A stretch of 64,000 nucleotides of DNA, from the sequence record DRR723986_4205; one strand, given 5' to 3'. Positions 22,515 to 25,543 of this stretch are shown piece by piece (the stretch's first letter is position 1; each line of letters begins with the position of its first letter). A model generated the notes under the pieces. The model saw nothing but the letters and a program-made list of their open reading frames with translations. It was not told where the DNA came from and did not search any database. The translations under genes and the position numbers were made by a program.

Positions 22515-23210
22515 CTAGCGCAGGCGGAACCAGCCGCTGACCGCGAGGCGTGGCCGCGGCGCGAAAGGACTGATACAAGTGACCGCGTGCACGTGCTCCA
22601 CATCGAAGAGCGACAGCGTATTGAAATCCGGTGACCAGGCATCGCGGGGAGTGCCATCCTTGCGATAGAACTGCAGCAGGCCGCCCCAATCGGGATGCCA
22701 CTGGGGTGACACATTGATCACAAAAGCCAGCCGTCGCTGCTCTTCGGTCACCACGTCCTGGTGGCGGGTGAGAAAGTCACCGGATTTAAAGCGAGTGGCC
22801 TGGGCGGAAGCACTGCGCAAGTCAGCATCACCGCTTATTCGGGAAATGGCTGCCAAAAGATCCGCGCTGTTCAACCAATGGAACAGGCCACCGAGCACGC
22901 CCGTGTCTTCCTGGTTGATTGCGCGCCGCCCGTACCAGAAGCCAACGCCTCGCGCCGCCTGCTCGAGCACGCCCTGGAGCAGGCGCTCGCGGTCTTCCTG
23001 GGGCAAGGCTCGCAATTCGGTATCCGCAACCTCACCGTAGTTGTTGTCCAGCACGAAAGCGTTCCGGTACAGCGTTTGCTCCGCCAGGGCCTGACTGAGA
23101 GTCCGGCTCTGGTCCTCCGGCAGGAGATTACTTATCCGCACGCGGCGATCCTCGCGAAACTCGCGGCTCAGCTGATCGAGATCCAACTGCGGGTTGAGGT
23201 GAAAATCCAT
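22515..23210 (-). CDS. 2OG-Fe(II) oxygenase (prolyl-hydroxylase-like)
   Basis: GDFLTRHQD (HxD), WHPDWGGLLQF, HAV, RLAVSGW. Confidence 0.85.
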   Translation of the reverse strand: MDFHLNPQLDLDQLSREFREDRRVRISNLLPEDQSRTLSQALAEQTLYRNAFVLDNNYGEVADTELRALPQEDRERLLQGVLEQAARGVGFWYGRRAINQEDTGVLGGLFHWLNSADLLAAISRISGDADLRSASAQATRFKSGDFLTRHQDVVTEEQRRLAFVINVSPQWHPDWGGLLQFYRKDGTPRDAWSPDFNTLSLFDVEHVHAVTCISPFAPRPRLAVSGWFRLR

Positions 23211-23310
23211 GGGAGGCACTTCCTGCTCGGCTGCTATCGGCGCAGATTATACCTGTGCCGCCGCCATCCTGCCCCGCCTGTCGCCCGAGGAGTTGCCCGC
23301 TCATGTGCGG

Positions 23311-23943
23311 TCAGGGTAGTGGCAATCCCCGCTGCGAGCGCAGGGCGGGTTGCGGGCGCGAAACCCCAAACCCCTCACCAGCGGGACCGGTGTCTGGCGC
23401 GGGATAAAACAACAGCAGGCGTCCACGCCCACTTACCGGGTCCAGCCAGAGTTCGCGAAACTGGTGCGCGCTCAAGCGCCTGTTGCCCCAGGCGGGGTCA
23501 GCGAGCTGCACTGCGCCGCCAGGATCGACGCCGGCAATCACCGAGAAATGGCTCCAGCCATCGCGCTGCAAGTGGGCGATCGCCGGGACCCGAAGTCGGG
23601 GGAGTTCTGCAGCGACGAGGGAGACACCCTGGCCCTGCAGCCCGAACTCGGCGGCCAGGACCGCCAGGGTGGCGAAAGACATTCCGGCTGTCTCCCAGTT
23701 TGCGGGCAGGCGCAGACCGGGCGATGGATCAGCCAGCAGGCCTAATACAGCAGCTTCGTCCACCTCCCGTTCATAGTAGGCGCTGAGCAGGGTCGCCAGC
23801 GCTGCAGCGCCGCAGCTGTAATCCCGTGACTGGCGCACAATGCCCAGATCACGAAGAGTGCGCCAGTCCCGGAACGCGGGATTGCCGTTGGCGGCAACAG
23901 CGGCCGCCGAGGCGATCAACAATAAACCGGCGCCAAGGCTCAG
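23311..23943 (-). CDS. Stand-alone C39 family cysteine peptidase with signal-peptide-like N-terminus
   Basis: VRQSRDYSCGAAALATLL (catalytic Cys), HFSV (His), LADPAWGN (Asp). No ABC domain. Start uncertain (CTG 23943 or TTG 23922). Confidence 0.85.
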   Translation of the reverse strand: MSLGAGLLLIASAAAVAANGNPAFRDWRTLRDLGIVRQSRDYSCGAAALATLLSAYYEREVDEAAVLGLLADPSPGLRLPANWETAGMSFATLAVLAAEFGLQGQGVSLVAAELPRLRVPAIAHLQRDGWSHFSVIAGVDPGGAVQLADPAWGNRRLSAHQFRELWLDPVSGRGRLLLFYPAPDTGPAGEGFGVSRPQPALRSQRGLPLP

Positions 23944-24242
23944 TCGAAAGGAAAAGCGCGCGGTGGTTCCCAGCCGGGTTCGATGACGCCCTCGGCGCGC
24001 AGCTCTGCCAGGGTCTTGCGCCTGGCCAGGTACAGGGCAAGCGCGTTGCACACGGCAAAGCCCGCACAACAAATGATCAAGGCCGGTATCACGCTCACGG
24101 TCGGCCAAACGAGCATAACGGGCAGCATGACGCACAGCACCAGTACCGAGAAACTGCCACCGCAGTACTGCGCCCAACGCCGATTGCAGCGCTGCCGGAA
24201 CGCTTCGGTTCTCTCCCGTTGTAGCCAGAGTGGATGCTTCAT
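23940..24242 (-). CDS. Small membrane protein, candidate immunity protein
   Basis: 100 aa, GGAG SD before the ATG, about two hydrophobic segments flanked by basic residues. Lies between the precursor and the C39 gene. Confidence 0.65.
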   Translation of the reverse strand: MKHPLWLQRERTEAFRQRCNRRWAQYCGGSFSVLVLCVMLPVMLVWPTVSVIPALIICCAGFAVCNALALYLARRKTLAELRAEGVIEPGWEPPRAFPFD

Positions 24243-24303
24243 CGTCTCGACTCCAGGACCAGGACAGTTTCACCATAGCAAATCGTAGCGTGATACCGGA
24301 AGC

Positions 24304-24612
24304 TCACGGATTTTCCGGGAGCGCGCCACTGCTGCCGTAATGCGGCACATATACGCCCCAGAACACACCCATCAGAGCGATATCGACGCCGGCGATTGCC
24401 AGGGCGAGTCCCAGCGGCGCAAATCGGCCCTGGGTCGCTGACATCTCAGTCTCGCTCAGCAGCGCCACGCCTGATGACAGCCCCGCGCTGTCGACGAAGG
24501 CAGCACTGACCGCCTCACCGCCGGGGGCGGTAAATTGCGGACCCGCCATTGCCGGCTGGGCGGCCAGGCCGGCAATGGCCAGCGGTAGTATCAATTTCCT
24601 GATTGTTTTCAT
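24304..24612 (-). CDS. Secreted peptide precursor: Sec signal, LSETEMSATQG leader motif, hydrophobic 40-aa core
   Basis: Strong SD AAGGAG 7 nt before the ATG at 24612. 102 aa, MKTIRKLILPLAIAGLAAQPAMA-...LLSETEMSATQG-RFAPLGLALAIAGV... Confidence 0.8.
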   Translation of the reverse strand: MKTIRKLILPLAIAGLAAQPAMAGPQFTAPGGEAVSAAFVDSAGLSSGVALLSETEMSATQGRFAPLGLALAIAGVDIALMGVFWGVYVPHYGSSGALPENP

Positions 24613-24676
24613 GGTATGACTCCTTGTCAGTTGTCGCGACCGGGATCCCTCCCCGCCGCTGCTTGTCCCACTCTCG

Positions 24677-25543
24677 CTAAAAACGGTATATCCAGTCCAC
24701 GGCCAGGCGACTGGACCGCGCTCCACTGGCGGCATAGTCGACTTCGAAAAAAATCGTCGAAGCGGGACCCGGTGCCAGGCCCATACCCAGGCGCAGGCTG
24801 GTGAGCGTGCTGCGCGGCGCGACCTCCCTGCCCCCCAGCGTATCGGCGCCGGTGACAGACAGGCCCGCACCGGCAATCAGGGTAACCTCGGGGTTGACGG
24901 CAAAGTTGAGCTGGGGAGCCAGCCAAACCACATCCCCCGGATCCAGTCGGTCGGCGCTCAAAGCGCGTGGCCGGCGCCACTCGTAACCGGCGGCCAGCGA
25001 CAGGACCACCGGGTCCAATGAGCGATAGGCGGTGGCAGCGGCCCGGTAGGCGGTGCCATAGGCCGTTGCGACACCGGAAAGTGACGAACTGTCTGCCAAA
25101 CGGGTGCCCAGCTGTAACAGCAGGGCCGGGCTGGAGCCCTCGGCAATGGCCAGCCAGTTCAGGCCGAGGTCGAGACTCTGGCGGGTTTCGCGGCGGGTGA
25201 ACGCACCCGGCTGCCGCCAGCGCAGCTGGTTCACCGAGACCCTGGCATTCACTTCCAATGCCCGGCCGACCCCGTAGCGAAGGCTGCTGTTGAACTCCGT
25301 GACTTCCAACTCCTGCCGCAGCAGCAGTTGGGCCCCACCTACCTGCAGGGTTGGTTCGACAAGGGGCAGATGATCCTCACCGTGGCGGAAAGCCGTTCCG
25401 GTTTCCAGCTTGAGTACCGATTCCTCAACCAGCAGCTCCTCAATGTTCAGTGGCATACTGGCGCCGACCGGCCGGGCAGCCAAAAGCAATACCACCAGCA
25501 ACACAAATAGCCCAACAGGCAGCTTGAAACAGTGGCGGTTCAC
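24677..25543 (-). CDS. Outer-membrane beta-barrel (FapF / 'MetA-pathway of phenol degradation'-like transporter family)
   Basis: GGAGG SD with GTG start, signal peptide, SLRYGV..LEV, YRSLDPVVLS, LNFAVNPEVTL, alternating beta-strand pattern, C-terminal WIYRF beta-signal. Confidence 0.75.
   Translation of the reverse strand: MNRHCFKLPVGLFVLLVVLLLAARPVGASMPLNIEELLVEESVLKLETGTAFRHGEDHLPLVEPTLQVGGAQLLLRQELEVTEFNSSLRYGVGRALEVNARVSVNQLRWRQPGAFTRRETRQSLDLGLNWLAIAEGSSPALLLQLGTRLADSSSLSGVATAYGTAYRAAATAYRSLDPVVLSLAAGYEWRRPRALSADRLDPGDVVWLAPQLNFAVNPEVTLIAGAGLSVTGADTLGGREVAPRSTLTSLRLGMGLAPGPASTIFFEVDYAASGARSSRLAVDWIYRF

What the first reader, a model, noticed from the sequence alone, without database searches (positions are those of the whole stretch)
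23311..25543. Candidate undescribed Fap-like peptide/microcin export system: beta-barrel, Sec-plus-leader precursor, immunity-like protein, periplasmic C39 peptidase
Seen: four closely spaced, co-oriented genes. (1) A signal-peptide-bearing beta-barrel ending in YRF. (2) A 102-aa peptide with a Sec signal, an internal LSETEMSATQG motif and a hydrophobic core. (3) A 100-aa membrane protein. (4) A stand-alone C39 peptidase with intact Cys-His-Asp and a hydrophobic N-terminus. No ABC transporter, HlyD or TolC gene is nearby. Known: classical class II microcins/bacteriocins are cleaved by a C39 domain fused to an ABC exporter (PCAT); the Pseudomonas Fap amyloid system pairs a periplasmic C39 protein (FapD) with a beta-barrel (FapF). 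Inference: FapD/FapF-like machinery here serves a non-amyloid, bacteriocin-like cargo by Sec export, periplasmic leader cleavage and exit through a dedicated barrel. I cannot name a characterised system with this cargo.
Basis: partly seen in the sequence, partly recalled or inferred. Interest (0 to 1): 0.92.

Follow-up and report, generated by a model that had tools for sequence, protein, structure and literature searches.

The report
Barrel-plus-C39 two-step peptide export cassette
A marine bacterium carries a four-gene cassette that most likely sends a small greasy peptide across the inner membrane by the ordinary Sec route, trims a bacteriocin-type tag off it in the periplasm and releases it through its own outer-membrane pore, a little-studied relative of the Pseudomonas amyloid and Neisseria Nap export systems.

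Summary
The barrel has no family hit, but its model matches FapF (Z 25.2) and COG4313 (Z 24.3) about equally. The peptidase is a C39 enzyme with invariant Gln/Cys/His/Asp. The 102-aa precursor has a Sec signal, then a tag in the register of the ComA/LahT double-glycine consensus, then a helix as hydrophobic as a membrane span.

The order barrel, precursor, C39 recurs in all 30 of 32 genome loci that hold enough DNA. A profile of the signal-plus-tag finds 510 cluster representatives with very diverse cargo. FapE of a true fap operon carries the same tag, ending G-R-aromatic as here. The 100-aa membrane protein occurs only with this cargo family, as an immunity or cargo-specific protein would.

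A described counterpart exists, the Neisseria nap island (2025). By register, cleavage falls after G-R rather than Q-G.

Nothing is shown experimentally, and the complex prediction failed. I file it as a new variant of a known kind. This scan has noted the same module before on other DNA.

The parts
24677..25543 (-). Outer-membrane 12-strand beta-barrel of 288 aa. It has a signal peptide, a conserved N-terminal helix (LPLNIEELL, residues 31-38) and a C-terminal ...YRF. It is a FapF/COG4313-like fold without the FapF coiled coil.
   Evidence: ORF. No Pfam or NCBIfam hit at E<=1. AF2 model with pLDDT 84.5. Foldseek places FapF first at E 3e-12 and TM 0.69-0.70, with COG4313 at 2.1e-10. VIA-align gives FapF Z 25.2 (rmsd 2.7, 242 aligned, model 28-288 on FapF 88-406), COG4313 Z 24.3 and NalP Z 22.6. 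Alignment of 15 relatives.
24304..24612 (-). Precursor of 102 aa. Sec signal at residues 1-23 (nt 24544-24612). Propeptide at 24-63, holding the invariant Phe39 motif and the double-glycine-type tag LSETEMSATQG-R (tag at nt 24427-24459). Hydrophobic core at 64-102 (nt 24307-24423).
   Evidence: Five close relatives. Tag statistics over 42 precursors. Alignments A2 and A4. Low-confidence AF2 model (pLDDT 64) with helices at 54-60 and 65-88.
23940..24242 (-). Membrane protein of 100 aa. It looks like a two-helix hairpin with both basic ends on the same, presumably cytoplasmic, side. It is a cargo-specific partner and an immunity candidate.
   Evidence: No family above cutoff. A family HMM finds it in 28 of 32 genome loci, in none of L034-L047 and in 3 of 80 metagenome loci. 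It therefore occurs only where the WGxYVP-type core occurs.
23311..23964 (-). Stand-alone C39 cysteine peptidase with a hydrophobic N-terminus. The catalytic Cys codon is at 23812-23814, His at 23548-23550 and Asp at 23497-23499. The start codon is unresolved: TTG at 23922 or 23919, a GTG about 30 codons upstream of the hydrophobic segment that overlaps gene 3, or CTG.
   Evidence: Pfam PF03412 at E 5.9e-17. NCBIfam FapD 63 bits (cutoff 330) and FilB 54.9 bits (cutoff 475). ComA peptidase domain at E 8e-4. Invariant Q21, C27, H115 and D132 in A3. N-termini compared. No indel at the junction.

Best explanation
The cassette is a self-contained two-step secretion module of the FapD/FapF (Fap) and NapP/NapF (Nap) kind. 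I infer the following sequence of steps.

Step 1. The 102-aa precursor crosses the inner membrane through Sec, and signal peptidase removes residues 1-23.

Step 2. The remaining propeptide presents a double-glycine-type tag, with Leu at -12, Glu at -8, Met at -7, Thr at -4 and Gly at -2. The periplasmic or membrane-tethered stand-alone C39 peptidase recognises this tag. It cuts at the G-R-F junction, most likely after G-R, which would release a 39-aa Gly/Ala-rich hydrophobic helical peptide.

Step 3. The 12-strand barrel is a minimal FapF that keeps the N-terminal helix but lacks the periplasmic coiled coil. It lets the peptide cross the outer membrane.

Step 4. The 100-aa hairpin protein is specific to this cargo family. 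It most likely protects the producer's inner membrane, as an immunity protein does, or handles the hydrophobic precursor.

The cargo is most likely a membrane-active, microcin-like peptide. It could act on competitors or, as proposed for the Nap peptides, on the producer population. No step is shown experimentally here. FapD activity in the periplasm and FapF as a pore are shown for Pseudomonas in PMC5557850.
For: Gene order. Barrel, precursor and C39 occur together in every one of the 30 genome loci that hold enough DNA. The other 2 of the 32 loci, L006 and L032, are cut by contig ends. In 80 metagenome loci anchored on C39 relatives, the barrel profile hits in 41 and the signal-plus-tag profile in 33. 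Many of those loci are only 1-3 kb long.

Barrel. The fold ranks FapF first. The barrel profile also reaches 376-488-aa barrels at E 3e-8 to 9e-5. Those barrels hit NCBIfam FapF at E 2e-47 to 3e-17 and sit beside FapD/FilB-like C39 genes.

Peptidase. It has the C39 fold family and an invariant catalytic set. Relatives have canonical Sec signals.

Tag. In 42 precursors, Leu is at -10 in 41, Met or Leu at -5 in 42, Glu or Asp at -6 in 30 and Thr, Ser or Ala at -2 in 39. The invariant Gly was used to anchor the alignment. This is the spacing of Leu(-12)-X3-Glu(-8)-Leu(-7) plus Val(-4) reported for ComA and LahT (PMC6363468). The profile of signal plus tag finds 510 representatives at E<=1e-3. Of the 149 read, 148 carry the motif at the N-terminus and 143 of those 148 have a signal-like hydrophobic stretch. 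The residue after the Gly is Ala in 103 of 148, which is the classical Gly-Ala site.

Fap link. FapE of a true fap operon (FapD 423.7 bits, cutoff 330) carries the same tag directly after its signal peptide, and it ends G-R-Y. An ORF of 250-290 codons on the same strand as the FapD-like gene, taken as FapE-like, carries a like tag in 7 of the 10 best FapD loci.

Cargo character. Across the family the cores run 26-246 aa, 67 of 130 have at least 15% Gly, and they fall into 35 unrelated groups. Gene 3 co-occurs strictly with one core family. Most Halieaceae cores end in a CxxC tail, which suits an exported, disulfide-forming peptide. No ABC, HlyD or TolC gene lies nearby.
Against: There is no experimental datum for this cassette.

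The position after the invariant Gly is Arg, which departs from the Gly/Ala/Ser rule of studied C39 domains, so the scissile bond is uncertain.

The core is hydrophobic enough to stop in the inner membrane (KD19 2.07), which could prevent release.

The peptidase has no canonical start codon that would give a full signal peptide.

The barrel matches the importer COG4313 as well as it matches FapF (Z 24.3 against 25.2). It fails the FapF equivalog model and lacks the coiled coil that FapF needs for secretion (PMC5557850).

Within Halieaceae the core is more conserved than the tag, which is unusual for a competition toxin.

No cargo matched a bacteriocin family above threshold. Only TIGR03949 appeared, at E about 0.01, on 2 of 10 relatives.
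Confidence: 0.6

Rival explanations
1. The route is the same, but the cargo is structural rather than toxic. It would be a self-assembling, Gly/Ala-rich surface or matrix peptide, amyloid-like or a FapE-like primer or anchor. Gene 3 would then be a chaperone or anchor rather than an immunity protein.
For: The machinery's best-studied relative exports amyloid subunits (PMC5557850). FapE, which carries the same tag, is a low-abundance fibre component that is needed for secretion. The core is strongly conserved across Halieaceae. A class II microcin of Acinetobacter forms amyloid and builds biofilm through Gly/Ala/Val motifs (PMC13188072).
Against: The 39-40-aa core has no Asn/Gln repeats and is predicted to be one hydrophobic helix (low confidence). 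A dedicated small membrane protein tracks the cargo family, as immunity genes do. Other members carry one small membrane ORF per peptide (L030).
Confidence: 0.2
2. Nothing is exported. The precursor would be a type I inner-membrane peptide whose periplasmic propeptide the C39 enzyme removes, as maturation or regulation of a membrane peptide. The barrel would be a COG4313-like uptake channel for hydrophobic molecules.
For: The core reaches membrane-span hydrophobicity. COG4313 ties with FapF in fold score. The protein-atlas neighbours of the barrel carry PF13557 in 15-26% of their members.
Against: The same tag precedes soluble, Gly-rich and repeat cargo of up to 433 aa that cannot be membrane peptides. 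Barrel and peptidase stay linked to tagged cargo across distant lineages. CxxC tails suit an oxidising compartment. The C-terminal tail of the window peptide has no basic residue to hold it in the cytoplasm.
Confidence: 0.12
3. The four genes are neighbours by chance or a decaying remnant, with no joint function.
For: The peptidase start codon is unclear. No RNA data are available.
Against: Gene order is conserved across at least 30 genomes. All frames are intact, and metagenome contigs at 95-100% identity show substitutions only. Catalytic residues are invariant.
Confidence: 0.03

Closest known systems
Neisseria nap island: NapA/B/C peptides, NapP C39 peptidase, NapF FapF homologue (PMC11798529, PLoS Biol 2025; passages read, supplements closed)
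   Same: Small bacteriocin-like peptides with a GG-type motif. A stand-alone C39 peptidase. A FapF-type outer-membrane protein. An immunity-like small gene. No ABC exporter in the model.
   Different: In the text I read, the Nap peptides are cationic, and how they cross the inner membrane is left open (a holin-like NapH is suggested). Here the precursor has a plain Sec signal and a hydrophobic core. The Nap peptides promote autolysis rather than killing competitors.
Pseudomonas Fap functional-amyloid system: FapD periplasmic C39 and FapF trimeric plugged barrel (PMC5557850)
   Same: Sec-exported substrates, a periplasmic C39 peptidase needed for secretion and a 12-strand barrel with an N-terminal helix. 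FapE carries the same tag, ending G-R-aromatic.
   Different: The barrel here lacks the coiled coil and linker. Barrel and peptidase both score far below the NCBIfam FapF and FapD cutoffs. The cargo is one 39-40-aa hydrophobic helix, not Asn/Gln-rich repeats. There are no FapA, FapB or FapC genes.
Class II microcin and bacteriocin export by peptidase-containing ABC transporters (PCAT, MFP, TolC; PMC12219008, PMC6363468)
   Same: The tag has the Leu(-12)/Glu(-8)/Leu(-7)/Gly(-2) register. It has a C39 catalytic domain, a small Gly-rich cargo and an adjacent small membrane protein.
   Different: The peptidase is not fused to an ABC transporter, and no MFP or TolC gene is nearby. The tag lies behind a Sec signal and a spacer rather than at the extreme N-terminus. 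Position -1 is Arg. Export would take two steps through the periplasm.
Fil 'putative pilus' system as named by NCBIfam (FilB C39 peptidase NF050078, FilC NF050079)
   Same: Second-best NCBIfam match of the peptidase. The intermediate long barrels hit FilC. It is again a pairing of C39 with a barrel.
   Different: Scores are far below the cutoffs. I found no paper describing FilB or FilC function. No pilin-like gene is present here.
COG4313 / Phenol_MetA_deg outer-membrane channel (PDB 4rl8)
   Same: A 12-strand barrel with an N-terminal helix. Its fold score ties with FapF.
   Different: It is an importer of hydrophobic compounds, and nothing read here links it to a C39 peptidase or tagged cargo. 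The window barrel has no PF13557 hit.

Membership tests
Peptidase C39 (Pfam PF03412) | Profile match above the gathering score | tested here: met
   62.2 bits against 22, E 5.9e-17
Peptidase C39 (Pfam PF03412) | Catalytic Cys, His and Asp, with the oxyanion Gln six residues before the Cys | tested here: met
   Q21, C27, H115 and D132 are invariant in 31 of 31 sequences of A3. The window reads Q-x5-C in VRQSRDYSCG.
FapD (NCBIfam NF058616, equivalog) | Score above the curated cutoff of 330 bits | tested here: not met
   63 bits. A true FapD scores 423.7 bits.
FapD (functional class: periplasmic stand-alone C39) | Not fused to an ABC transporter, and has an N-terminal export signal | tested here: inconclusive
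   It stands alone, and its relatives are about 200-230 aa. Relatives have clear signal peptides. In the window, only a short hydrophobic N-terminus follows any canonical start codon.
FapF (NCBIfam NF058560, equivalog) | Profile match above 700 bits | tested here: not met
   No hit at E<=1. The only sequence link runs through intermediate long barrels.
FapF (structure) | 12-strand barrel with an N-terminal plug helix | tested here: met
   Z 25.2, rmsd 2.7, 242 residues aligned, model 28-288 on FapF 88-406. Helix at 32-37 before strand 1. Whether the helix sits inside the pore could not be read from the output.
FapF (structure) | Periplasmic N-terminal coiled coil and linker, needed for secretion in Pseudomonas | tested here: not met
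   The mature protein starts about 3 residues before the helix, so there is no room for a coiled coil. True FapF in L132 has one.
Double-glycine-type leader | Leu(-12)-X3-Glu(-8)-Leu(-7), a hydrophobic residue at -4 and Gly at -2 | tested here: met
   The window has L52, E56, M57, T60 and G62. The consensus is taken from PMC6363468.
Double-glycine-type leader | Position -1 is Gly, Ala or Ser | tested here: not met
   It is Arg in the window and in 22 of 42 locus precursors. It is Ala in 103 of 148 wider family members. It is Arg in FapE.
Double-glycine-type leader | Leader lies at the extreme N-terminus of a cytoplasmic precursor | tested here: not met
   It is preceded by a Sec signal and a spacer of about 28 residues.
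Class II microcin | PCAT and MFP genes encoded nearby | tested here: not met
   None among the 17 ORFs scanned between 7.8 and 39.3 kb.
Class II microcin | Antibacterial activity and a cognate immunity protein | not testable with these tools
   Gene 3 is only a candidate, on the strength of co-occurrence.
Nap-type system (PMC11798529) | Stand-alone C39, a FapF homologue and GG-motif small peptides in one locus | tested here: met
   The architecture is met.
Nap-type system (PMC11798529) | Sequence homology to NapP, NapF and the Nap peptides | not tested
   No Nap sequences were available, and the paper's S1 Fig is a closed supplement.

The most novel reading that the evidence does not exclude
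The Sec signal followed by a Phe motif and a double-glycine-type tag is a portable, two-part address for a widespread and unnamed two-step secretion route: Sec, then a periplasmic C39 peptidase, then a 12-strand FapF-like barrel. This route would carry hundreds of unrelated cargo families, including FapE, and so would answer what FapD-type peptidases cleave. The Halieaceae cassette would be its minimal form, exporting a new family of hydrophobic, membrane-active peptides with a dedicated immunity protein.
Probability: 0.5. Interest if true: 0.8.

Novelty: new variant of a known kind. Interest (0 to 1): 0.62.

Why it matters
Double-glycine peptides of Gram-negative bacteria are described in the papers I read as cargo of ABC exporters that carry a fused peptidase.

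This cassette and its many relatives point to a second, ABC-free route with a tag that can be recognised from sequence. Such a tag would let cargo be mined from genomes. Here, 510 representative clusters already match it.

The same tag suggests a concrete cleavage site on FapE for FapD. The target of FapD was left open in 2017 (PMC5557850), and a 2026 preprint still does not name it.

The cassette is also very small: three machinery or partner genes plus the cargo, and a barrel without a coiled coil. That makes it a convenient system for testing how an unfolded or hydrophobic peptide crosses the outer membrane without ATP.

Tried and rejected
Complex prediction of peptidase with precursor. There is no result.

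Expression. No RNA holder is listed. Only DNA contigs were laid.

Promoter and terminator scan. One of each was found, no more than in shuffled sequence.

Whole-genome context. No genome is held for the window.

Barrel profile against PDB sequences. FapF was not found. The only hit, a designed protein at E 0.004, is spurious.

Cargo against Pfam and NCBIfam. Nothing scored above threshold.

The co-oriented 2OG-Fe(II) oxygenase (22515-23219) and the upstream TauD gene. Neither is found in any of the 32 related loci, so both were dropped from the module.

Covariation between the residue after the Gly and peptidase columns. Strong-looking columns appeared (Trp/Tyr where that residue is small, Gln/His/Pro where it is Arg or Lys). 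The classes coincide with clades, so I do not use this as evidence.

AF2 model of the precursor. Mean pLDDT is 64, so I use it only for the helix positions.

Literature on FilB and FilC. No functional description was found. A search for 'periplasmic C39' returned only the FapF paper. Searches combining FapF, C39, microcin, double-glycine and Sec signal returned only the nap paper as a report of this architecture. The library holds open-access papers and bioRxiv preprints only.
Full report
**1. What is in the sequence**

- The 288-aa protein (24677-25543) has a signal peptide and ends in YRF.
- The 102-aa protein (24304-24612) starts with a Sec-type signal ending AMA. It carries LSETEMSATQG at residues 52-62. 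Residues 63-90 are as hydrophobic as a membrane span (Kyte-Doolittle-19 up to 2.07).
- The 100-aa protein (23940-24242) is a hydrophobic hairpin with basic residues at both ends.
- The last gene is a C39 peptidase (Pfam E 5.9e-17). Its best NCBIfam matches are FapD (63 bits, cutoff 330) and FilB (54.9 bits, cutoff 475).

The barrel, the peptide and the hairpin protein match no Pfam or NCBIfam family above threshold.

Among 17 larger ORFs from 7.8 to 39.3 kb there is no ABC transporter, HlyD-type adaptor or TolC.

One detail stays open. The peptidase frame has no ATG, GTG or TTG upstream of its hydrophobic N-terminal segment unless it overlaps gene 3 by about 100 nt. Called starts of the closest relatives (61-64% identity) fall inside the hydrophobic segment too. 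Metagenome contigs across the junction show no insertion or deletion.

**2. The barrel**

An AF2 model built on 15 relatives (pLDDT 84.5) is a 12-strand barrel preceded by a short conserved helix (LPLNIEELL).

Foldseek ranks FapF first (E 3e-12, TM 0.69-0.70) and the COG4313 channel next (2.1e-10). VIA-align gives FapF Z 25.2, COG4313 Z 24.3 and NalP Z 22.6. FapF and COG4313 are therefore tied. According to the FapF paper, they are each other's closest structures.

At sequence level the window barrel fails the FapF model. Its family profile also does not find FapF among PDB sequences.

There is, however, a chain of matches. In 400 sampled gammaproteobacterial genomes the profile hits 14.
- Eight are strong hits with the same gene architecture.
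- Six are weak hits (E 3e-8 to 9e-5) to barrels of 376-488 aa. Those hit NCBIfam FapF at E 2e-47 to 3e-17, and also FilC. In five of the six loci a FapD/FilB-like C39 gene lies beside the barrel, three of them confirmed against NCBIfam. None was seen in the short L044; its longer stretch L130 holds one two genes away.

Three of the six weak hits (L041-L043) come from genomes flagged unpublished. The chain also holds on L044-L046 alone.

The window barrel lacks the periplasmic coiled coil of FapF.

**3. Conserved gene order**

A scan of one genome per species found 32 loci. Most are in Halieaceae (Haliea, Kineobactrum, Chromatocurvus, Parahaliea, Congregibacter, Pseudohaliea). One is in a Thiosymbion symbiont and one in Halomonas llamarensis.

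The peptidase follows the barrel in 30 of the 32. The two exceptions end at contig edges.

A precursor homologue is detected by tblastn in 28 of 32. Reading the ORFs shows that L020, L029 and L030 hold two precursors each with different cores.

The neighbouring 2OG oxygenase and TauD genes are not conserved in these loci.

Each of five whole genomes checked holds a single barrel match.

**4. The tag**

I anchored 42 precursors on the invariant Gly.

| Position relative to Gly | Residue | Count |
|---|---|---|
| -10 | Leu | 41 of 42 |
| -6 | Glu or Asp | 30 of 42 |
| -5 | Met or Leu | 42 of 42 |
| -2 | Thr, Ser or Ala | 39 of 42 |
| +4 | Pro | 34 of 42 |
| +1 | Arg | 22 |
| +1 | Glu | 9 |
| +1 | Ala | 6 |
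| +1 | Lys | 2 |
| +1 | Asp, Ser, Gly | 1 each |

[quoted passage not shown] By that register the cut falls after G-R, not after Q-G.

An invariant Phe (residue 39) marks a second conserved motif upstream.

A profile of signal plus tag (alignment A4) was searched against 1.84 billion representatives. It found 510 proteins at E<=1e-3 and 33 at E<=1e-10. I read the 149 listed that were new to the session.
- 148 of the 149 carry the motif near the N-terminus.
- 143 of those 148 have a signal-like hydrophobic stretch.
- The residue after the Gly is Ala in 103, Glu in 25, Arg in 5, Gly in 5 and Lys in 4.
- Cores of at least 25 aa (130 of them) range from 26 to 246 aa, with a median of 72.5.
- 67 of the 130 have at least 15% Gly, and 33 have two or more Cys.
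- They fall into 35 groups that BLAST does not link, 27 of them singletons.

A relaxed form of the motif occurs 3 times in 84,222 residues of window ORFs, including the real site.

**5. The peptidase family**

The catalytic Gln, Cys, His and Asp are invariant in 31 of 31 aligned sequences.

Stand-alone relatives of about 200-230 aa are abundant. 1665 clusters score at E<=1e-10 among 8000 scored candidates. Sources name a few of them 'predicted double-glycine peptidase', and some come from Marinospirillum and Marinobacter. At least 572 relatives were found in metagenome contigs.

In the 80 metagenome loci that were kept, the barrel profile hits in 41 and the signal-plus-tag profile in 33. Many of these loci are too short to hold all the genes.

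**6. Gene 3**

An iterated HMM finds this family in 28 of 32 genome loci. The misses are two contig ends, plus L022 and L030, which have other cargo. It finds the family in none of L034-L047 and in 3 of 80 metagenome loci.

These are exactly the loci whose cargo has the conserved core with invariant Asp77, Leu80, Gly86, Tyr88 and Pro90. Gene 3 therefore belongs to the cargo and not to the machinery, as an immunity protein or a cargo-specific handler would.

Other members carry different small membrane ORFs next to their peptides.

**7. Link to Fap**

In the same 400-genome sample, 62 genomes have a FapD-model match at E<=1e-10, and one exceeds the cutoff (423.7 bits).

That locus is a fap operon with FapB- and FapC-like Asn/Gln-rich proteins, FapD, FapE and a coiled-coil FapF. 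Its FapE has a signal peptide followed at once by LKDSEMAELRG-RY. That is the same register, and it ends G-R-aromatic as in the window.

In 7 of the 10 best FapD loci an ORF of 250-290 codons, on the same strand as the FapD-like gene and taken here as FapE-like, carries a tag of this kind ending RG-R-Y/F. In the other 3 my pattern found none on a like ORF in the 3.7 kb held.

Rouse et al. found that FapE alone lacks its N-terminal region in cells, and they left the FapD target open. A 2026 preprint still speaks only of 'precursor processing'.

**8. What is already known**

The Neisseria nap island (PMC11798529, passages read) has the same parts list: GG-motif bacteriocin-like peptides, the C39 peptidase NapP, the FapF homologue NapF and an immunity-like NapI. 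The paper's model has periplasmic cleavage and exit through NapF. That model was not tested, and inner-membrane crossing was left open.

The microcin papers I read treat double-glycine cargo as PCAT cargo only.

My other searches found no further report of this route. Subscription journals are not covered.

This scan's own notes list 12 earlier findings of the same module in at least 10 other genomes, one of them a near-identical Halieaceae cassette. I reached the reading before seeing them, and I checked the FapE claim myself.

**9. Mechanism and its weak points**

The most likely course is Sec export, removal of the propeptide by the C39 enzyme at G-R-F, exit of the 39-40-aa helix through the barrel, and protection or handling by gene 3. 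The evidence for it is the body of results in sections 2-7.

The evidence against is as follows.
- Arg at -1 departs from the Gly/Ala/Ser rule.
- The core could stop in the inner membrane.
- The peptidase signal in this window is uncertain.
- The barrel resembles an importer as closely as it resembles FapF, and it lacks the FapF coiled coil.
- The core is unusually conserved for a toxin.

CxxC tails on most Halieaceae cores, though not on the window's, suit an exported peptide. The AF2 model of the precursor is weak (pLDDT 64) but places helices on the tag (54-60) and on the core (65-88).

**10. Verdict**

It is a new variant of the Fap/Nap kind with a new cargo family. Its main value is the two-part address, which can be recognised from sequence, and the testable FapE site.

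Noticed in passing
L132:2209-2955 (+); also L133, L135, L136, L137, L139, L140: FapE of a true fap operon (its FapD scores above the NCBIfam cutoff) carries, right after its signal peptide, the same Leu-X3-Glu-Met-X2-Leu-X-Gly tag followed by Arg-Tyr. In 7 of the 10 best FapD loci an ORF of 250-290 codons, taken as FapE-like, carries a like tag. This gives a candidate cleavage site for FapD.
   Followed up: partly
L022:4468-5766 (+): In a Thiosymbion symbiont genome the same signal plus tag heads a 433-aa Lys/Glu/Tyr-rich repeat protein. It lies upstream of the barrel, with the peptidase directly after the barrel. The route is therefore not limited to small peptides.
   Followed up: no
L030:6848-8352 (+): Halomonas llamarensis has two tagged 100-aa peptides with unrelated cores. 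Each is followed by one or more small membrane ORFs, like tandem bacteriocin-immunity pairs, ahead of the peptidase.
   Followed up: no
genome G066: One sampled gammaproteobacterial genome holds 6 barrel matches and 7 C39 matches on several contigs, so it has many copies of the module.
   Followed up: no
window 23917-24066: The peptidase frame overlaps the end of gene 3. It has no canonical start that would give a full signal peptide. A CTG overlaps the gene 3 stop codon (CTGA). Close relatives are also called with very short hydrophobic N-termini.
   Followed up: partly
alignment of 65 C39 sequences, window peptidase positions 100 and 135: Two peptidase columns are Trp or Tyr where the cargo has Ala, Gly or Ser after the invariant Gly. 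They are Gln, His or Pro where the cargo has Arg or Lys there. This could reflect pocket size but is confounded with phylogeny.
   Followed up: partly
L130:7648-8187 (-) and L129:8009-8779 (+): In loci with long FapF-like barrels, the ORF next to the peptidase has a signal peptide followed by a tag ending in a true Gly-Gly-Phe. None of these cargo proteins matches an NCBIfam family.
   Followed up: partly
window 22515-23219 (-): A 2OG-Fe(II) oxygenase lies 92 nt downstream of the peptidase on the same strand. It is absent from all 32 related loci, so it is probably not part of the module.
   Followed up: yes
window 24304-24423 compared with A2: The window and its five closest relatives lack the Gly-rich CxxC tail found on the cores of most other Halieaceae members. 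Their cores end in PENP or Y-R/Q-I-P instead.
   Followed up: no
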